A DNA stretch of 37,780 nt from a virus. Lineage: Duplodnaviria; Heunggongvirae; Uroviricota; Caudoviricetes. The DNA lies in IMG/VR virus record IMGVR_UViG_2541047682_000004, one strand, 5' to 3'. Both the position numbers and the translations under genes were made by a program. Shown one piece after another: positions 4,928 through 21,204 of this stretch; positions within the stretch are counted from its first letter, which is position 1; every line of letters starts with the position of its first letter. A model generated the notes under the pieces. That model was not told the origin of the DNA, ran no database searches, and saw nothing but the letters and a program-made list of their open reading frames with translations.

Positions 4928-5149
4928 CTATTCACGCGGGTATGTAATCATTCTGGCAATGCTTAATGCCGCTGCTTTTTCCAGATTGGTGATATCCTGC
5001 TCCAGAGCGGACAGATTTTCAGCCTGCTTAGCCCTGGCTTCATTGGCCCATTTCAAATCCTGCGCTGCATTAATTTTCTGGCGCATCCACTCATAAAGTT
5101 CATCATTGGTATAGTCTGGCGCGATGATGACGGGTTCTCGTTTCTGCAT
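4928..5149 (-). CDS. hypothetical early protein (73 aa)
   Basis: ORF with GAGGAA RBS; last gene of a compact three-gene leftward string downstream of the repressor. Confidence 0.45.
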   Translation of the reverse strand: MQKREPVIIAPDYTNDELYEWMRQKINAAQDLKWANEARAKQAENLSALEQDITNLEKAAALSIARMITYPRE

Positions 5150-5178
5150 ACTGATTCCTCGCGGTGCTGCTTCGCTTA

Positions 5179-5307
5179 TCAGCCGTTAGATTTTGCCGAG
5201 CTGGAAAGCGCCTGTTTAAACTCACTGAAGCTGAGAGCTTCTTCGCCTTCGGCAAGGCCTTCGAAGTATTCTTCGTAAGCCTTTTCCATGATTGTGTCGA
5301 AATCCAT
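5179..5307 (-). CDS. hypothetical small acidic protein (42 aa, MDFDTIMEKAYEEYFEGLAEGEE...)
   Basis: found by manual translation (below the 60-aa ORF-track cutoff); RBS AGGTGAGTG; start 2 nt after the upstream gene stop, stop about 30 nt before the next gene. Confidence 0.3.
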   Translation of the reverse strand: MDFDTIMEKAYEEYFEGLAEGEEALSFSEFKQALSSSAKSNG

Positions 5308-5308
5308 A

Positions 5309-5545
5309 TCACTCACCTGAGTTTCTTTCCAGCCAGCGACGGGCACCATTTTCGGTTTTAAACGTTTTGCTTTTGGTATACGTCATCGCGGTGAACGTAC
5401 CGTCCTGGTTGGGGAACACGCCACATACCAGAGATTCGCTGTTGCCAAGATCGATAGTATCCATGCTGACCTCATTTCCCCTTAACGCCGGGGTAGCGGA
5501 ACAAAAACCTGCTGCATAGTTATTAAAGTTGAACCCTGCCGTCAT
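5309..5545 (-). CDS. hypothetical early protein (78 aa)
   Basis: ORF with GAGG RBS about 8 nt upstream of ATG at 5545; first gene leftward of the repressor. Confidence 0.45.
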   Translation of the reverse strand: MTAGFNFNNYAAGFCSATPALRGNEVSMDTIDLGNSESLVCGVFPNQDGTFTAMTYTKSKTFKTENGARRWLERNSGE

Positions 5546-5756: not shown

Positions 5757-6395
5757 TTAAATATTTTGTTGAATTTTAAAGCATACGCCCAATATGCAAG
5801 ATAGATCATCCAGCATAATTGAAGGGTAGCGAGGATTCGTGGGGACTAAAAGAATATCCGGCCCTTCTATCTCCAGTTTACGAATGACAGGTGTTGTGGT
5901 CCCTTTGGGTAAGGCAAGGACAATATTTCCTGGTTGTACGGTTCGATCGGGATCAACAAAAACTGTTGAACCATTTGGGATGGAAACTCCCCCACCAGAT
6001 GTTGACATACTGTCACTCTCTAGAACAACTGCAAAGGTATTGGCCGGGATTTCTCCGACAAGCTGCACACAAGAGGTTATTGAGGAATTTTTCATATAAT
6101 CACTCCAGCTTGCTGCCTGCTGAAGTGATAGTAGCGGAACCGTTTTTATCGGCGGTAAAGATAGATCAAGCGAATCACCTGTATTTAACTCTCCTCCATT
6201 AAGAAGCCAATTTTCGTTTACTTTCAATATTTTTGCCAGTGAACTTATGTAACGCGAGGACGGCGCTCCTCCACCGTTCATCCATTGACTTACGGAGCCT
6301 TTTGATGCGCCAGTGGCATTGACAAGGTCTTTGCCTTTCAGGTTTAGCGCATGCATACGTTGGGTTATGCGTTCAGATATTGTTTGCTTGTTCAT
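5757..6395 (-). CDS. CI-like prophage repressor (N-terminal XRE HTH, C-terminal S24 LexA-like autopeptidase)
   Basis: 212 aa; HTH segment LKGKDLVNATGASKGSVSQWMNG; C-terminal S24-like region (GNIVLALP...VIRKLEIEG); divergent from the cro-like gene. Confidence 0.85.
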   Translation of the reverse strand: MNKQTISERITQRMHALNLKGKDLVNATGASKGSVSQWMNGGGAPSSRYISSLAKILKVNENWLLNGGELNTGDSLDLSLPPIKTVPLLSLQQAASWSDYMKNSSITSCVQLVGEIPANTFAVVLESDSMSTSGGGVSIPNGSTVFVDPDRTVQPGNIVLALPKGTTTPVIRKLEIEGPDILLVPTNPRYPSIMLDDLSCILGVCFKIQQNI

Positions 6396-6486
6396 GTTTT
6401 GATTTTAAAACACAGATGGTTTTGTTTCTTGACTTTCTTTGGTTTTGATTATTAAACTTTTGGCGTTCAGTTTTATGGAGCGACTC
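6396..6486. promoter_or_regulatory. divergent immunity-region promoter/operator region
   Basis: intergenic between repressor and cro-like gene; TTGACT at 6430-6435; repeated GTTTTGATT motifs at about 6398 and 6452. Confidence 0.4.
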
Positions 6487-6729
6487 ATGAAAAAATCAGA
6501 AGTATTAGGCTATTTTGGCGGAGTTGTTAAAACAGCCGCAGCTCTAGGAACGTCAAAAACCACAGTCAGCATGTGGGGGGAAGAGGTTCCGTGGAAATGG
6601 GCGTTGCTAATTCAGGCAGTCACTGCCGGGGCGCTCAAATATGAGTTACACATACCGACGGTTGTCATTCCCGGTTCTGATCATAATCCGCCTTCTAACC
6701 AAGGGGGGATTCATGAAAATCAAGCATGA
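6487..6729 (+). CDS. Cro-like HTH protein (YdaS-like)
   Basis: start at MKKSEV with GGAG RBS; HTH VLGYFGGVVKTAAALGTSKTTVSMW; overlaps the downstream YdaT-like gene as in Rac ydaS-ydaT. Confidence 0.7.
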   Translation: MKKSEVLGYFGGVVKTAAALGTSKTTVSMWGEEVPWKWALLIQAVTAGALKYELHIPTVVIPGSDHNPPSNQGGIHENQA

Positions 6730-14958: not shown

Positions 14959-16008
14959 ATGCTTAATACTGTAAAAATATCCAGTTGTGAGTTAATCAAC
15001 GCCGACTGCCTGGAATTTATCCGGTCGTTACCCGAAAATTCTGTTGACCTGATAGTCACGGACCCGCCGTACTTTAAAGTGAAGCCTGAGGGCTGGGATA
15101 ACCAGTGGAAGGGCGACGATGATTACCTGAAGTGGCTGGACCAGTGTCTGGCGCAGTTCTGGCGGGTGCTGAAACCTGCCGGAAGTCTTTACCTGTTCTG
15201 TGGTCATCGCCTGGCATCTGATATCGAAATCATGATGCGTGAACGCTTCAGTGTGCTGAACCATATTATCTGGGCGAAGCCGTCCGGACGCTGGAACGGA
15301 TGCAACAAGGAAAGCCTGCGGGCGTATTTCCCCGCCACAGAGCGCATTCTGTTCGCGGAACATTATCAGGGGCCGTATCGTCCGAAAGATGCCGGGTATG
15401 CGGCGAAGGGCAGTGCACTGAAACAGCATGTGATGGCCCCGCTGATTTCTTACTTTCGTGATGCGCGCGCGGCCCTGGGGATAACGGCAAAACAGATTGC
15501 AGATGCCACAGGAAAGAAAAACATGGTGTCGCACTGGTTCAGTGCCAGTCAGTGGCAGCTACCGAATGAAAGCGATTATCTGAAATTACAGGCGCTGTTT
15601 GCCCGGGTGGCAGAAGAGAAGCATCGGCGTGGTGAACTGGAAAAGCTCCACCACCAGCTGGTGGATACGTATACCTCACTGAACCGGCAGTATGCGGAGC
15701 TGCTGAGTGAATATAAACATCTGCGGCGGTATTTTGGCGTGACGGTGCAGGTGCCGTATACCGATGTGTGGACGCATAAACCGGTGCAGTTCTATCCCGG
15801 GAAACATCCGTGCGAAAAACCGGCAGAAATGCTGCAGCAGATAATCAGCGCAAGTAGCCGTCCTGGTGATCTGGTTGCGGATTTTTTCATGGGGTCGGGT
15901 TCAACGGTAAAAGCGGCGATGGCACTGGGGCGTCGTGCGATTGGTGTTGAGCTGGAGACCGGACGTTTTGAGCAGACAGTCAGGGAAGTTCAGGATTTAA
16001 TCGTTTGA
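14959..16008 (+). CDS. orphan DNA methyltransferase (amino-MTase, DPPY motif; N6-adenine or N4-cytosine)
   Basis: 349 aa; motif IV IVTDPPYF near N-terminus and motif I-like FMGSGST near C-terminus; no adjacent restriction endonuclease ORF. Confidence 0.85.
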   Translation: MLNTVKISSCELINADCLEFIRSLPENSVDLIVTDPPYFKVKPEGWDNQWKGDDDYLKWLDQCLAQFWRVLKPAGSLYLFCGHRLASDIEIMMRERFSVLNHIIWAKPSGRWNGCNKESLRAYFPATERILFAEHYQGPYRPKDAGYAAKGSALKQHVMAPLISYFRDARAALGITAKQIADATGKKNMVSHWFSASQWQLPNESDYLKLQALFARVAEEKHRRGELEKLHHQLVDTYTSLNRQYAELLSEYKHLRRYFGVTVQVPYTDVWTHKPVQFYPGKHPCEKPAEMLQQIISASSRPGDLVADFFMGSGSTVKAAMALGRRAIGVELETGRFEQTVREVQDLIV

Positions 16009-16057
16009 AACGGATGAGATTGCAGAATTAATTACGCACCATTATTATTCTGCTCCC

Positions 16058-16133
16058 GGCCCTTTAGCTCAGTGGTGAGAGCGAGCGACTCATAATCGCC
16101 AGGTCGCTGGTTCAAATCCAGCAAGGGCCACCA
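16058..16133 (+). tRNA. ileZ: tRNA-Ile2 (anticodon CAT, ileX/ileZ-like) or tRNA-Met
   Basis: 76-nt cloverleaf folded by hand: 7-bp acceptor GGCCCTT/AAGGGCC, anticodon loop CTCATAA, T-loop TTCAAAT, encoded CCA; resembles E. coli ileX. Confidence 0.85.
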
Positions 16134-16140
16134 TCACATA

Positions 16141-16217
16141 CCGCCATTAGCTCATCAGGAAAGAGCGCCAGCCTTCGAAGCTGGTTGCGCGGAGTTCGGG
16201 TCCCCGAAGGCGGTCCA
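16141..16217 (+). tRNA. tRNA-like gene, possibly tRNA-Arg (anticodon TCG by position); degenerate
   Basis: cloverleaf possible with anticodon stem CCAGC/GCTGG and loop CTTCGAA, but acceptor and T-stem each have a mismatch and the T-loop is non-canonical (TTCGGGT); may be a pseudogene. Confidence 0.4.
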
Positions 16218-16230
16218 TTATCTGTATCCT

Positions 16231-16307
16231 GCGTTGTTAGCTCAGCCGGACAGAGCAATTGCCTTCTAAGCAATCGGTCACTGGTTCGAATCCAGTACAA
16301 CGCGCCA
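16231..16307 (+). tRNA. argO: tRNA-Arg (anticodon TCT, argU/argO-like)
   Basis: 77 nt; perfect 7-bp acceptor GCGTTGT/ACAACGC, anticodon loop CTTCTAA, T-loop TTCGAAT, encoded CCA. Confidence 0.85.
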
Positions 16308-16412
16308 CACTTATTTTCCCTGGCTCGCTTTTGCGGGCTTTTTTTTAAATGTCTCACAATTCAGGCGGTTGACTGTTGTCTGGTTTGCGGGGAGTTTGTT
16401 AAAAGAAACTGG

Positions 16413-17998: not shown

Positions 17999-18343
17999 AT
18001 GACTCAAAACTATGAACTGATTGTGAAAGGGATCCGCAATTTTGAGAATAAAGTTACGGTAACTTTAGCATTACAGGACAAAGAACGCTTTGACGGTGAA
18101 ATTTTTGACCTGGACATCTCGCTGGACCGTGTTGAAGGTGCTGCGCTGGAGTTTTATGAGGCAGCGGCCAGAAGGAGCATCAGACAGGTCTTCCTGGATG
18201 TCGCTGCCGGGTTATGTGAAGGGGATGAGCAGTCGCCGGAAAAGCGCCCCGTAATTTTAGAGGCGCAGAATGTATGGATAACCTACAAAGGAAAGCTACC
18301 GGGAAGGATTACTGGTTCCCTGAAGACTCCGCCGAAATGGTAG
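17999..18343 (+). CDS. hypothetical protein inserted between holin and endolysin (YdfR-like position)
   Basis: 114-aa ORF starting 5 nt after the holin stop. Confidence 0.5.
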   Translation: MTQNYELIVKGIRNFENKVTVTLALQDKERFDGEIFDLDISLDRVEGAALEFYEAAARRSIRQVFLDVAAGLCEGDEQSPEKRPVILEAQNVWITYKGKLPGRITGSLKTPPKW

Positions 18344-18581
18344 TTTTGCCAGCATAATTTTCTTCCAGCAATGCCGCCAGCCACTTGAAAGAATTTTGTT
18401 GTTCCTGGGACCATTTGGGGTTGCGTGATTCAAAATGAATGGATGCCAGCGTTGGCAGCATTTGCTCCCTGGGAATTGATAAGGCCAGATGTGAAAATGC
18501 AACAGTGAGGGCATTTACATCATCCCGAAGCCTGGAAATGCAGTCGAGCAACTCCTGTAGAGAAATGGTGCTATTGTCCAT
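18309..18581 (-). CDS. hypothetical protein, convergent with the preceding ORF (35-nt 3' overlap)
   Basis: 90-aa ORF with AAGAGGA RBS about 8 nt upstream; unremarkable composition. Confidence 0.3.
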   Translation of the reverse strand: MDNSTISLQELLDCISRLRDDVNALTVAFSHLALSIPREQMLPTLASIHFESRNPKWSQEQQNSFKWLAALLEENYAGKTTISAESSGNQ

Positions 18582-19221: not shown

Positions 19222-19380
19222 GCAGAATATTTTGCTGAAAAATAAGGCATGGCCACGCGGGCGGATAACATGAAATCCTGCGAAGTGGCGAAACGTAAGT
19301 GAATAAAAGTAAAAACCCCGTTTGTTGGCACCAAGCGGGGTTTTGTGTTTCCTGACTCCGGAAAAGTCAAAGGAGAAAGT

Positions 19381-19518
19381 GTGTTTGATTTTAGCAAACT
19401 GATTCGGGAGATTCGAGTGATGGCTGAAAAATTATCCACCTGGAAGTTCATTCTTATCTGGCTGGTGTTTGTGATTATGGCCTCTGGTTATTTCATCGGT
19501 CAGATACGCTGGTGGTGA
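19381..19518 (+). CDS. putative small single-pass membrane protein (45 aa from GTG, or 32 aa from ATG at 19420)
   Basis: AGGAG at 19371-19375 with 5-nt spacer to GTG; hydrophobic core [20 protein letters not shown]; stop 1 nt before Rz start. Confidence 0.3.
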
Positions 19519-19519
19519 A

Positions 19520-19984
19520 ATGAACCGCGTACTGTGCGTGGTCATCATTGCCCTGCTGGTGGCCTGTGGTGCGCTTAGTCTGGGGCTGAATCATTACCGT
19601 GATAACGCCATTACCTACAAAGCCCAGCGCGACAAAAATGTCAGAGAACTGAAGCTGGCGAACGCGGCAATTACTGACATGCAGATGCGTCAGCGTGATG
19701 TTGCTGCGCTCGATGCAAAATACACGAAGGAGTTAGCTGATGCGAAAGCTGAAAATGATGCTCTGCGTGATGATGTTGCCGCTGGTCGTCGTCGGTTGCA
19801 CATCAAAGCAGTCTGTCAGTCAGTGCGTGAAGCCACCACCGCCTCCGGCGTGGATAATGCAGCCTCCCCCCGACTGGCAGACACCGCTGAACGGGATTAT
19901 TTCACCCTCAGAGCGCGACTGATAATAATGCAAAAACAACTTGAAGGGGCACAGCTATACATTCGAGAGCAATGCCTCAGATAA
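19520..19984 (+). CDS. Rz: Rz inner-membrane spanin (i-spanin)
   Basis: 154 aa; N-terminal TM helix then coiled-coil; close match to lambda Rz ([17 protein letters not shown]...). Confidence 0.85.
19740..19922 (+). CDS. Rz1: Rz1 outer-membrane lipoprotein spanin (o-spanin), embedded in Rz in the +1 frame
   Basis: 60 aa; lipobox LVVVGC; proline-rich; near-identical to lambda Rz1. Confidence 0.8.
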
Positions 19985-20291
19985 AAACCGGCCAAGGATA
20001 ATCCGCTGAAGATTCGCCGGTGGCTAAAGTGTGCCAAGAGTTCAATTTACGCAATTACTCCTGTCGATGCTATGTACCGTCTTTGTGAAGTCAATGGATA
20101 CCTGATTTATTTCTGTGCGCTGTATCGTCGCTGTACTCTTGCATTAATTATGACTGTAGCCTGACGGGGAACTCCTTCTGCACAAGTGTGGGGGAATAAT
20201 CAAAAACGATGCACACCGGGGTTACCGGGTACACATATTTCATCATGCCAGCGAGTCCGGTTCTGGCACGGAAGAAACCGGACGTTATGAT

Positions 20292-20702
20292 TTAGTGCGG
20301 AAATATTTGTGTAGTGTTCTGAATGTTCTCAGTAAAGAGTAATGAATTATCAAAGGTATAGTAATACCTTTTGTTTTCGTGGATATTTGTAATCCATCTG
20401 AAAACCCCTGCTGTAGCAAGATTTTTCCTGTATTCGTAAAATGATAACTCTCCTGATTTGAATCCTTTTAAGGTGGCTTCTATAAGGCATTTATTTTTTG
20501 AAAATCTTACATTTACAACCTTACCCTGTCCTTTTATTAAAACCGTATTATCGTTTTCAAGAACAAGATGAATATTCTCTGTGGCTAAATAGTAAATGTA
20601 ATGTGAGACATTGTGACGTTTTAGTTCAGAATAAAACCAGTGATAGTTTAAATTATTTCGCACTTTATCGAATATTTGTTTAAAAATGGCAATCTGAGCC
20701 AT
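20292..20702 (-). CDS. hypothetical protein (136 aa from MAQIAIF; AT-rich; YbcV/DUF1398-like by position)
   Basis: ORF 20292..20717; preferred start at 20702 with GGAAGG RBS; low GC; at the bor-equivalent locus between Rz and cos. Confidence 0.5.
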
Positions 20703-20759
20703 TGTAGTACCTTCCATGTGATATGAGGGGGGGTAGTCTGCACGATTATCTAAATTGCT

Positions 20760-20993
20760 TCAATCTGGTCTGACCTGTTTTCTGAGCAATTCAGTAATGT
20801 CACTCTTTTCTTTGTTTGCTTCAGGCGAAACTCTTTTTTCTGAGCACAGTCTCCGGCGGCAGGCTTCAATGACCCAGGCTGAGAAATTCCCGGACCCTTT
20901 TTGAACAAGAGCGATGTTAATTTGTTCAATCATTTGGTTAGGAAAGCGGATGTTGCGGGTTGTTGTTCTGCGGGTTCTGTTCTTCGTTGACAT
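20760..20993 (-). CDS. ribbon-helix-helix (Arc/CopG-like) DNA-binding protein
   Basis: 77 aa; RNIRFPNQMIEQINIALVQKGSGNFSAWVIEACRRRL fits the RHH beta-strand and two-helix pattern; directly upstream of the 136-aa gene on the same strand. Confidence 0.5.
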   Translation of the reverse strand: MSTKNRTRRTTTRNIRFPNQMIEQINIALVQKGSGNFSAWVIEACRRRLCSEKRVSPEANKEKSDITELLRKQVRPD

Positions 20994-21192
20994 GAGGTTG
21001 CCCTGTATTCAGTGTCGCTGATTTGTATTGTCTGAAGTTGTTTTTACGTTAGGTTGATGCAGATCAATTAATACGATACCTGCGTCATAATTGATTATTT
21101 GACGTGGTTTGATGGCCTCCACGCACGTTGTGATATGTAGATGATAATCATTATCGCTTTACGGGTCCTTTCCGGTGATCCGACAGGTTACG

Positions 21193-21204
21193 GGGCGGCG
21201 ACCT
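21193..21204. other. cosN cohesive-end site (GGGCGGCGACCT) with flanking lambda-like cosQ/cosB
   Basis: ACGGGGCGGCGACCTCGCGGTTTTTCACTATTTATGAAAATTTT closely matches the lambda left-end sequence; about 180 bp upstream of the Nu1 start. Confidence 0.8.

What the first reader, a model, noticed from the sequence alone, without database searches (positions are those of the whole stretch)
20292..20993. RHH regulator plus AT-rich 136-aa protein at the bor-equivalent locus, opposite to the late genes
Between Rz and cos, where lambda carries bor on the opposite strand, there is a minus-strand pair: a 77-aa ribbon-helix-helix protein followed 42 nt downstream by an AT-rich 136-aa protein with a GGAAGG RBS. 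An RHH-first two-gene arrangement is typical of toxin-antitoxin and some abortive-infection modules. The same arrangement also resembles ybcW-ybcV of DLP12, which is uncharacterised.
Basis: partly seen in the sequence, partly recalled or inferred. Interest (0 to 1): 0.5.

Follow-up and report, generated by a model that had tools for sequence, protein, structure and literature searches.

The report
Lambda's ynfO–ydfO accessory gene pair
The two minus-strand genes are the well-known but functionally uncharacterised ynfO (DUF3950) and ydfO (DUF1398) genes that phage lambda and the K-12 cryptic prophages also carry next to cos; they are not co-conserved like a toxin–antitoxin pair, so the finding is ordinary.

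Summary
Two minus-strand ORFs lie between Rz and cos: 20760-20993 (77 aa) and 20292-20702 (136 aa).

They are already named. The 77-aa protein is a YlcI/YnfO-family protein (Pfam DUF3950). The 136-aa protein is a DUF1398 protein, about 75-80% identical to E. coli YdfO, whose NMR structure is PDB 2HH8. RefSeq annotates both at these positions in identical E. coli B2 prophages such as UTI89. K-12 Qin has the same layout (nohA / ynfO / 57 nt / ydfO). Lambda and DLP12 carry both genes with ybcW and bor added.

The toxin-antitoxin or abortive-infection reading is not supported:
- DUF3950 occurs without DUF1398 in most phages sampled.
- DUF1398 occurs alone in about 30 chromosomal loci of about 25 enterobacterial assemblies.
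- DUF1398 has its own conserved promoter-like block, which includes a PdhR site reported in K-12.
- The fold has no close match in the PDB other than YdfO itself, and no toxin or defence family matches.
- The lambda homologue is dispensable for lytic growth.

"RHH" is plausible for DUF3950 but unproven.

Best reading: two separate prophage accessory genes at the lysis-packaging junction. One is a small basic DNA-binding protein tied to the terminase boundary. The other is a host-regulated soluble protein of unknown activity. Known genes, function unknown, low interest.

The parts
20760..20993 (-). ynfO-type gene: 77-aa YlcI/YnfO-family (DUF3950) protein. It is very basic (pI 10.9). Residues 1-50 are conserved and the C-terminal tail is variable.
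   Evidence: Pfam PF13132 scores 72.8 bits against a cut-off of 25, and NCBIfam NF041551 scores 35.2 against 30. RefSeq annotates it as ynfO in UTI89. It is about 97% identical to YnfO-type copies at K-12-like Qin positions, in the same layout as K-12 ynfO. Synonymous changes outnumber non-synonymous ones in the first 50 codons. Alignment A1 shows the invariant N-terminus and variable tail.
20292..20702 (-). ydfO-type gene: 136-aa DUF1398 protein. It is soluble and built from two alpha-alpha-beta3 repeats. An upstream in-frame ATG at 20717 would give 141 aa.
20710..20715 (-). Shine-Dalgarno-like GGAAGG, 7 nt upstream of the ATG at 20702.
   Evidence: Position. The motif is conserved upstream of the ydfO and ybcV/lambda-type copies, and AGAGG/AGAGA occupies the equivalent place in ycgX-type copies.
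20735..20763 (-). Promoter-like block TTGAAG-N17-CAGACT for the DUF1398 gene. The -35-like hexamer overlaps the TGA stop of ynfO.
   Evidence: The two hexamers and the 17-nt spacing are kept upstream of ydfO, ybcV and ycgX types while the spacer sequence varies. The simple consensus scan did not call it. Inferred, not demonstrated.
20763..20779 (.). PdhR-box-like palindrome AACAGGTCAGACCAGAT (minus-strand reading), inside the last codons of ynfO and just upstream of the DUF1398 promoter-like block.
   Evidence: It is an exact match to the PdhR gSELEX site reported in K-12 in the ynfO-ydfO region (PMC7660256). The related DLP12 site lies between ybcV and ybcW, and ybcV mRNA fell 10-fold in a pdhR mutant.
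20256..20282 (-). GC-rich hairpin starting 10 nt after the DUF1398 stop codon. A weak terminator candidate with no U-tract.
   Evidence: The fold is -23 kcal/mol but the z-score is only -1.2. The terminator scan did not call it.
21063..21095 (.). Inverted repeat ATCAATTAATACG/CGTCATAATTGAT, 70-100 nt upstream of the ynfO start. A candidate operator, untested.
   Evidence: Found. It lies in the 199-nt cos-to-ynfO spacer, which is nearly identical in lambda, 434 and 2H10. No counterpart was found upstream of the HNH-terminase-type copies.
21193..21204 (+). cosN core GGGCGGCGACCT (context only). It lies 199 nt from the ynfO start codon. The Nu1-type small terminase gene follows.

Best explanation
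The two ORFs are orthologues of ynfO (DUF3950, YlcI/YnfO family) and ydfO (DUF1398) of the E. coli K-12 Qin prophage. Lambda carries the same two accessory genes to the right of bor, and DLP12 carries them as ylcI and ybcV. This window holds the compact variant, without bor and ybcW.

They are best read as two separate prophage accessory ('moron'-type) genes sharing the slot between the lysis and packaging modules, not as a two-component module.

ynfO encodes a small, very basic, probably ribbon-helix-helix-like DNA-binding protein. It always sits divergently next to the terminase/cos boundary, whatever lies downstream of it. I infer that it is a transcriptional regulator: an autoregulator, or a regulator of leftward accessory transcription running antisense to the late operon.

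ydfO encodes a soluble protein whose fold has no close PDB match other than YdfO itself. It is dispensable for lytic growth. It appears to be transcribed from its own conserved promoter-like block, which carries a PdhR-bound site. It is AT-rich, and published work reports strong induction by stress or by perturbing H-NS-dependent repression. I infer a binding or modulating role in the lysogen's physiology rather than a toxin.

Shown here: identity, family membership, fold, gene order and lack of co-conservation. Inferred: DNA binding by YnfO, the promoter, and any physiological role.

For: Independence of the two genes.
- Phage records: 152 hold DUF3950 and 43 hold DUF1398.
- Phage 434 reads cosQ-DUF3950-bor-Rz. 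BP-4795 and 783R2 read Rz, DUF3950 alone, then HNH-TerS-TerL.
- Of 77 diverse IMG/VR DUF3950 loci, 55 lack DUF1398. In every locus where a terminase or Rz homologue was found, the terminase gene (Nu1, or HNH-TerS) lies on the upstream side of DUF3950 and Rz on the downstream side.
- About 30 chromosomal loci in about 25 assemblies have a monocistronic DUF1398 with no DUF3950 homologue within about 5 kb. They include E. coli ycgX, Klebsiella, Kluyvera, Raoultella, Citrobacter and Salmonella diarizonae.
- Among complete E. coli genomes, 5376 of 5426 have DUF1398-like DNA and 4187 of 5426 have DUF3950-like DNA.
- GC content is 31% for DUF1398 and 45% for DUF3950.

Own regulation of DUF1398. A GACCAGATTGAAG-N17-CAnACT block is conserved upstream of the ydfO, ybcV and ycgX types whatever lies further upstream. 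It contains the exact PdhR gSELEX site reported in K-12, and ybcV mRNA fell 10-fold in a pdhR mutant.

Not needed for lytic growth. lambdap78 is non-essential by CRISPRi.

Expression and physiology from published work. ydfO was induced about 100-fold by an ionic liquid, and YdfO overexpression is reported to raise oxidative-stress resistance. ybcV rose more than 1000-fold when T4 MotB, which alters H-NS-dependent repression, was overexpressed. ybcW and ylcI form a convergent overlapping transcript pair in K-12 RNA-seq data.

DNA-binding hints for YnfO. There are 6 K/R residues in positions 1-16 and the pI is 10.9. The model shows coil 1-18, then helices 19-32 and 34-54. hhalign places NIRFP on Arc's NLRWP. 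The weak top Foldseek hits are DNA-binding proteins: Reg576 and TCP-domain proteins, which are RHH-type to my knowledge. There is a weak PHROG hit to HicB-like antitoxins.
Against: No experiment assigns a function to either family in the papers searched.

The RHH assignment is not statistically supported. hhalign probability is 1.9%, all Foldseek E-values exceed 5, the model pLDDT is 63, and profile searches of the PDB found nothing.

The proposed DUF1398 promoter has poor hexamers and was missed by the consensus scan. No promoter was found for ynfO.

In lambda-cos-type prophages, every phage-type DUF1398 locus with enough flanking DNA but one (L114) also has DUF3950 upstream. Some functional coupling in that lineage therefore cannot be excluded.

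ybcV overexpression gave a glycogen phenotype in the same category list as the toxins yoeB and hokA, so a growth effect is not ruled out.
Confidence: 0.6

Rival explanations
1. Type II toxin-antitoxin or abortive-infection module. The RHH protein would be the antitoxin and autorepressor, and the DUF1398 protein the toxin or effector.
For: Regulator-first order, same strand, short gap (57 nt) and small proteins. There is a weak PHROG hit of the 77-aa protein to HicB-like antitoxins at E=0.055. All phage-type DUF1398 loci with enough flanking DNA but one (L114) have DUF3950 upstream. ybcV overexpression changes glycogen content, as the toxins yoeB and hokA also do in the same screen.
Against: The two genes are not co-conserved in either direction. 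About 30 chromosomal DUF1398 loci have no DUF3950 homologue nearby. In lambda and DLP12 an opposite-strand gene separates the two.

The DUF1398 gene carries its own conserved promoter-like block. It matches no toxin, defence or enzyme family in Pfam, NCBIfam or PADLOC. Its fold has no close PDB match other than YdfO, and no catalytic-looking invariant residues appear.

A YdfO structure was solved by NMR. YdfO overexpression is reported as protective. In the TraDIS-only essential list read here, ydfO appears and ynfO does not, the opposite of what an antitoxin would show.
Confidence: 0.06
2. The DUF3950 protein is a DNA-binding accessory of the packaging/cos boundary. It might insulate or regulate transcription across cos and into the terminase genes, or act at cos. 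DUF1398 would be an unrelated passenger.
For: In every sampled locus where a terminase homologue was found, the DUF3950 gene is divergent from a terminase gene. This holds for two different packaging modules, Nu1/A and HNH-TerS-TerL, while its downstream neighbour varies. The 199-nt spacer to cosN is nearly invariant among lambda, 434 and 2H10. YlcI/YnfO proteins are also listed in capsid-forming PICIs of Enterobacter.
Against: The linkage could be simple hitch-hiking with the recombination module that contains cos. The gene reads away from cos. No operator-like sequence is shared between the lambda-type and HNH-type upstream regions. No packaging phenotype is known. The CRISPRi screen of lambda listed only annotated genes in this region and did not include the DUF3950 ORF.
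Confidence: 0.15
3. One or both genes are cargo of a phage-host conflict hot spot, for example an anti-defence protein, a superinfection-exclusion factor or a defence trigger.
For: The slot between Rz and cos is variable and holds lysogenic-conversion genes such as bor. A listed preprint mentions the neighbouring lambda gene lambdap79 in the context of a bacterial immune NADase, but its text could not be read. DUF1398 is a small protein with no fold relative of known function, as many anti-defence proteins are.
Against: There are no PADLOC matches. DUF1398 is widespread as a chromosomal, non-prophage gene in Enterobacteriaceae, with a more distant relative in Epilithonimonas (Bacteroidota). 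That fits a general cellular role better than a phage-specific one. No experimental link was found.
Confidence: 0.1

Closest known systems
E. coli K-12 Qin prophage ynfO (b4533) - ydfO (b1549)
   Same: The architecture is identical: a Nu1-type terminase gene (nohA), a 389-nt spacer, a 234-nt DUF3950 gene, a 57-nt gap, then a 411-nt DUF1398 gene. The PdhR-box sequence at the junction is identical to the reported Qin site. YnfO-type copies at K-12-like Qin positions are about 97% identical.
   Different: The DUF1398 protein is only about 75-80% identical to K-12 YdfO. Here the pair sits in a prophage that still has its lysis, terminase, portal and head genes around it, whereas Qin is a cryptic remnant.
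Phage lambda right end (bor, lambdap78, lambdap79, unannotated 64-aa DUF3950 ORF) and DLP12 borD-ybcV-ybcW-ylcI
   Same: The same two families occur in the same order and orientation between Rz and cos. The cos-proximal spacer and the proximal DUF1398 upstream block are conserved. DUF3950 is 95% identical over residues 1-55 and DUF1398 about 76%.
   Different: Lambda and DLP12 have two extra genes: bor downstream, and the plus-strand ybcW between the two. The two genes there cannot be one operon, and the DUF3950 C-terminal tail differs (64 versus 77 aa).
Arc/Mnt-type ribbon-helix-helix repressors (phage P22)
   Same: Both are small phage-encoded basic proteins. The predicted pattern is strand-like N-terminal segment, helix, G-x-S turn, helix. 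hhalign aligns NIRFP...KG with Arc NLRWP...NG in the expected register.
   Different: There is no significant sequence, profile or fold match. Dimerisation and DNA binding are untested. YnfO also has a long, variable C-terminal tail.
E. coli YcgX and other chromosomal DUF1398 genes of Enterobacteriaceae
   Same: They share the domain and length and are 23-47% identical. Upstream of ycgX-type copies there is a related promoter-like block.
   Different: They are stand-alone chromosomal genes with no DUF3950, terminase or lysis neighbours within about 5 kb.

Membership tests
Pfam DUF1398 (PF07166) / YdfO-like fold | Full-length match to the family profile above the curated cut-off | tested here: met
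   147 bits against a cut-off of 22, covering profile positions 1-119 of 119.
Pfam DUF1398 (PF07166) / YdfO-like fold | Same three-dimensional fold as the solved member YdfO (PDB 2HH8) | tested here: met
YlcI/YnfO family (Pfam DUF3950 PF13132; NCBIfam NF041551) | Match to the conserved N-terminal domain above the curated cut-offs | tested here: met
   PF13132 scores 72.8 bits against 25. NF041551 scores 35.2 against 30.
Ribbon-helix-helix (Arc/MetJ-like) DNA-binding superfamily | Significant sequence or profile similarity to known RHH proteins | tested here: not met
   No RHH family appears in Pfam at E<=1. There are no PDB hits with a single sequence or with a profile. hhalign against Arc gives probability 1.9%. 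The only hint is a weak PHROG HicB-like hit at E=0.055.
Ribbon-helix-helix (Arc/MetJ-like) DNA-binding superfamily | Beta-strand then two helices, forming an intertwined dimer | tested here: inconclusive
   The monomer model shows coil 1-18 and helices 19-32 and 34-54, which is compatible, but pLDDT is only 63. The best Foldseek hits are DNA-binding proteins (Reg576, TCP domain) at E>5. No dimer was modelled.
Ribbon-helix-helix (Arc/MetJ-like) DNA-binding superfamily | Sequence-specific binding to repeated operator half-sites | not testable with these tools
   A candidate inverted repeat lies at 21063-21095, but it is not shared with the HNH-type copies.
Type II toxin-antitoxin system | The two genes are conserved together as neighbours across genomes | tested here: not met
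   Phage records: 152 with DUF3950 against 43 with DUF1398. Of 77 diverse DUF3950 loci, 55 lack DUF1398. About 30 chromosomal DUF1398 loci lack DUF3950. E. coli genomes: 5376 against 4187 of 5426.
Type II toxin-antitoxin system | Single autoregulated operon with overlapping or abutting genes | tested here: inconclusive
   The gap is 57 nt with no terminator between the genes. However, a conserved promoter-like block and a PdhR site lie in front of the second gene. In lambda and DLP12 an opposite-strand gene separates the two.
Type II toxin-antitoxin system | The second protein belongs to, or folds like, a known toxin family | tested here: not met
Type II toxin-antitoxin system | Toxicity of one protein, neutralised by the other | not testable with these tools
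   Only indirect literature exists: a YdfO structure was solved and YdfO overexpression is reported as protective.
Known anti-phage defence systems (PADLOC-DB) | Match to a defence-system protein model | tested here: not met
   The only hit is Csx23 at E=0.026 and 12.6 bits, which is noise. The 77-aa protein has no hit.
Bor/Iss lipoprotein locus | A Bor homologue is present between Rz and cos | tested here: not met
   tblastn of lambda Bor against the whole window gives only noise (E>2). The bor segment is missing from the lambda alignment.

The most novel reading that the evidence does not exclude
In lambda-cos prophages, YnfO (a ribbon-helix-helix-like DNA binder) and YdfO (a protein with no fold relative of known function) might work together as a lysogen-expressed switch. 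It could be a new kind of toxin-antitoxin, abortive-infection or anti-defence pair, or a split transcription factor whose sensing half is DUF1398. It would be wired to host pyruvate sensing through PdhR. The solitary copies of each gene elsewhere would then be degenerate or re-used forms.
Probability: 0.07. Interest if true: 0.55.

Novelty: already known. Interest (0 to 1): 0.18.

Why it matters
Very little is new. The genes are named, annotated at these exact positions in RefSeq, present in most E. coli genomes, and one has a solved structure.

The residual interest is that phage lambda, the best-studied virus, still carries two genes next to cos with no known function. The comparison made here narrows the options:
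- The two genes are separable units.
- DUF3950 tracks the terminase boundary.
- DUF1398 carries its own host-regulated promoter-like block with a PdhR site.

These points would guide a simple genetic test, but they do not open a major question.

Tried and rejected
1. Toxin-antitoxin or abortive-infection module. Rejected as the main reading on co-occurrence counts, the separate promoter-like block and the lack of any toxin or defence match.

2. A real DUF3950-DUF1398 fusion protein as evidence of functional coupling. Database proteins P0014 (233 aa, 761 members) and P0010 carry both domains. However, both have W exactly at the ynfO TGA stop, so they are gene calls made with genetic code 4. The gap length also varies by 1-3 nt among loci, so the shared reading frame is not conserved.

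3. Proving the RHH fold. PDB phmmer and profile searches, hhalign against Arc, an AF2 monomer and Foldseek gave nothing significant.

5. An operator shared between the lambda-type and HNH-type DUF3950 upstream regions. None was found.

6. Sigma-70 promoter and intrinsic terminator scans. No minus-strand promoter appeared upstream of either gene, and no terminator was called. The hairpin after the DUF1398 stop is not significant.

7. The annotations 'head protein' (PHROG 413) and 'putative envelope protein' (lambda records) for DUF1398. No evidence found here supports either label, and a family member's structure was solved by solution NMR.

8. The first genome-contig scan, with an 18-sequence alignment, failed for lack of a conserved stretch. 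It was repeated with 7 sequences.

9. The preprint mentioning lambdap79 could not be read.

Full report
**What is there**

The window is a lambdoid prophage of E. coli phylogroup-B2 strains. The 1.9 kb around the finding is 100% identical to UTI89, S88, NU14 and ATCC 11775.

Between Rz (19520-19984, with an embedded Rz1 ORF at 19740-19922) and cosN (GGGCGGCGACCT, 21193-21204) lie two minus-strand ORFs. One is 20760-20993 (77 aa). The other is 20292-20702 (136 aa, or 141 aa from an upstream ATG at 20717).

GGAAGG sits 7 nt before the ATG at 20702. The 136-aa ORF starts 57 nt after the stop of the 77-aa ORF. Homologues support the 136-aa start. In the lambda/DLP12-type upstream sequence the upstream ATG falls out of frame while GGAAGG is kept. 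RefSeq and K-12 both annotate 411 nt.

The 136-aa gene is 31% GC. Its neighbour is 45% and the window 51%.

**Identity**

The 77-aa protein is a YlcI/YnfO-family protein: Pfam DUF3950 at E=2e-20, and NCBIfam NF041551 above its cut-off. The 136-aa protein is a full-length DUF1398 protein at E=3.3e-43. It matches the NMR structure of E. coli YdfO (PDB 2HH8) at E=2e-69, about 75-80% identity depending on the method.

RefSeq already annotates both genes at these positions in UTI89, as 'ynfO: YlcI/YnfO family protein' and 'DUF1398 domain-containing protein'.

K-12 Qin has the same architecture: nohA, 389 nt, ynfO (234 nt), 57 nt, ydfO (411 nt). DLP12 has rzpD, borD(-), ybcV(-), ybcW(+), ylcI(-), nohD.

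Lambda itself has bor, lambdap78 (DUF1398), lambdap79/ybcW (+) and a 64-aa DUF3950 ORF before cos. That ORF carries no annotation in several lambda-family records. The DLP12 counterpart of the 77-aa protein is therefore ylcI, not ybcW. The window holds the compact form of lambda's own right end. Bor and YbcW are absent from the whole window.

**Are the two genes a module?**

That criterion is met.
- In 50,697 phage records, tblastn finds DUF3950 in 152 and DUF1398 in 43.
- Phage 434 reads cosQ-DUF3950-bor-Rz.
- BP-4795 and vB_EcoS-783R2 read Rz, a solitary DUF3950 gene, then HNH endonuclease-TerS-TerL.
- In 80 IMG/VR loci chosen with the BP-4795 protein (63-100% identity), 77 have at least 1 kb downstream of DUF3950, and 55 of these have no DUF1398 anywhere in the locus. 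In every locus where a terminase or Rz homologue was found, the terminase gene (Nu1, or HNH-TerS) lies on the upstream side of DUF3950 and Rz on the downstream side.
- A one-genome-per-species scan found about 30 chromosomal loci, in about 25 assemblies, with a DUF1398 gene and no DUF3950 homologue in the roughly 5 kb held on each side. They include E. coli and Shigella ycgX (43% identity), Citrobacter, Klebsiella, Kluyvera, Raoultella, Pseudocitrobacter and Salmonella diarizonae. More distant relatives occur in Epilithonimonas. In eight of these loci read in detail, the gene is flanked by non-coding DNA and by ORFs with no phage character.
- Among 5,426 complete E. coli genomes, DUF1398-like DNA is in 5,376 and DUF3950-like DNA in 4,187. 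Copy numbers reach 6 and 12 per genome respectively.

There is linkage inside the lambda-cos lineage. All but one (L114) of the phage-type DUF1398 loci with enough flank have DUF3950 upstream, and 79 of 80 loci with the window-type DUF3950 have DUF1398 57-60 nt downstream. Inheritance of one recombination block explains that as well as function does.

An apparent fusion of the two domains turned out to be an artefact. The database proteins P0014 (233 aa, 761 members) and P0010 have W at the ynfO TGA stop, so they were called with genetic code 4. The gap length varies by 1-3 nt among loci.

**The DUF1398 gene as its own unit**

About 75 nt upstream of its start codon are conserved among the ydfO, ybcV/lambda and ycgX types, whatever lies further upstream. 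The conserved pattern is GACCAGATTGAAG, a 17-nt variable spacer, then (T)GCAnACTAC, followed by a short leader and the ribosome-binding site.

Conserved hexamers with a variable spacer are what a promoter looks like, although the hexamers are weak and the consensus scan missed them. In the window the -35-like TTGAAG (20758-20763) overlaps the ynfO stop codon.

Immediately upstream is AACAGGTCAGACCAGAT (20763-20779). This is the exact sequence reported as a PdhR genomic-SELEX site in the ynfO-ydfO region of K-12. The same study found the related site between ybcV and ybcW, and a 10-fold drop of ybcV mRNA in a pdhR mutant (PMC7660256).

Other published observations:
- ydfO is induced about 100-fold by an ionic liquid, and YdfO overexpression is cited as raising oxidative-stress resistance (PMC4077768).
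- ybcV rose more than 1000-fold when T4 MotB, which alters H-NS-dependent repression, was expressed (PMC7827196).
- ybcV was up in a sabinene-tolerant strain.
- ybcV overexpression changes glycogen content.
- lambdap78 is dispensable for lambda plaque formation by CRISPRi (PMC10695390).
- ydfO is 'essential' by TraDIS only, while ynfO is not listed. That is the reverse of what a toxin-antitoxin pair would give. I suspect a technical cause, such as multi-mapping reads or protein-occluded AT-rich DNA.

**Structure**

The AF2 model of the 136-aa protein is confident (pLDDT 87.7). It is made of two alpha-alpha-beta-beta-beta repeats.

The labels 'head protein' (PHROG 413) and 'putative envelope protein' have no support.

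For the 77-aa protein, residues 1-50 are almost invariant and the tail is hypervariable. Synonymous differences dominate (19 against 6 codons versus the 783R2 copy), so it is a real gene under purifying selection. It is very basic (pI 10.9, six K/R in the first 16 residues).

The RHH idea is compatible with four weak observations. The model shows coil 1-18, then helices 19-32 and 34-54. hhalign places NIRFP...KG on Arc's NLRWP...NG. The weak top Foldseek hits are DNA-binding proteins, Reg576 and TCP-domain proteins, which are RHH-type to my knowledge. There is a weak HicB-like PHROG hit. None of these is significant, and profile searches of the PDB found nothing. I treat DNA binding as likely and the RHH fold as plausible.

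**How it most likely works**

This is inference. These are two independent prophage accessory genes in the variable slot between the lysis and packaging modules, both read antisense to the late operon.

YnfO is a small DNA-binding regulator fixed to the terminase/cos boundary. The 199-nt spacer to cosN, with an inverted repeat at 21063-21095, is nearly identical in lambda, 434 and 2H10. In K-12 RNA-seq data, ylcI and ybcW form a convergent overlapping transcript pair.

YdfO is a host-regulated soluble protein (PdhR, and probably H-NS) that modulates lysogen physiology by binding something still unknown.

Rivals are a TA/abortive-infection pair (about 6%), a packaging-boundary role for YnfO with YdfO as a passenger (about 15%), and conflict-related cargo (about 10%).

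**Verdict**

The toxin-antitoxin interpretation is not supported. The biochemical function remains unknown. Novelty: already known. Interest: low.

Noticed in passing
L094-L113, L126-L128 (e.g. L097 = CP136411.1, L096): Contigs or contig ends carrying about 3.5 kb of lambda's right end (Rz-bor-lambdap78-ybcW-DUF3950) sit in assemblies of unrelated taxa. Examples are Arcanobacterium 'plasmid unnamed1', Brevibacillus 'plasmid pContig2', Pedobacter, Flavobacterium, Cohnella and Bradyrhizobium. This looks like lambda control-DNA carry-over from sequencing; to my knowledge the nanopore control strand is a 3.6-kb lambda amplicon. Papers on Arcanobacterium and the fungus Metarhizium that list YlcI/YnfO/DUF1398 may reflect this.
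   Followed up: partly
window 20760-20762; proteins P0014, P0010: Database 'fusion' proteins carrying both DUF3950 and DUF1398 (one cluster has 761 members) have W at the ynfO TGA stop. They are gene calls made with genetic code 4, not real fusions. In this window the two ORFs happen to be in the same frame, separated by that single TGA.
   Followed up: yes
window 20727-20733: A run of 7 G (7 C on the coding strand) lies in the leader of the DUF1398 gene, between the promoter-like block and the ribosome-binding site. Its length differs among otherwise near-identical loci (about 4-7) and accounts for the 57-60 nt gap variation.
   Followed up: partly
window 20763-20779: This is an exact copy of the PdhR genomic-SELEX site reported in E. 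coli K-12 in the ynfO-ydfO region. It implies host pyruvate-sensor input into a prophage accessory gene. The core GACCAGATTGAA is conserved even upstream of chromosomal ycgX.
   Followed up: partly
window 19740-19922 (+): An Rz1-type o-spanin lipoprotein ORF (60 aa, with a lipobox-like LVVVGC motif and a proline-rich stretch) is embedded out of frame in Rz. The RefSeq UTI89 annotation lists only a 'lysis protein' here.
   Followed up: no
window 19222-19519, ORF 19345-19518 (+): A 297-nt gap separates the lysozyme gene from Rz. It holds a 57-aa ORF ending just before the Rz start, with a hydrophobic stretch ([18 protein letters not shown]). It is not annotated in RefSeq.
   Followed up: no
window 18309-18581 (-): Another minus-strand ORF (90 aa, annotated as hypothetical in UTI89) lies antisense inside the lysis cassette, between the YdfR-family gene and the lysozyme gene.
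   Followed up: no
L150 (Kluyvera genomosp. 1), 4986-5414 and 6258-6554: A chromosomal DUF1398 gene is followed about 850 nt downstream, on the same strand, by a Bor-like lipoprotein gene (49% identical to lambda Bor), with no terminase or DUF3950 nearby. The DUF1398-bor neighbourhood therefore also exists outside recognisable prophages.
   Followed up: no
window about 14960-16310 (from L001 1461-2809): A DNA methyltransferase gene is followed by three tRNA genes (Ile, Arg, Arg) upstream of the lysis cassette, as annotated in the identical UTI89 prophage.
   Followed up: no
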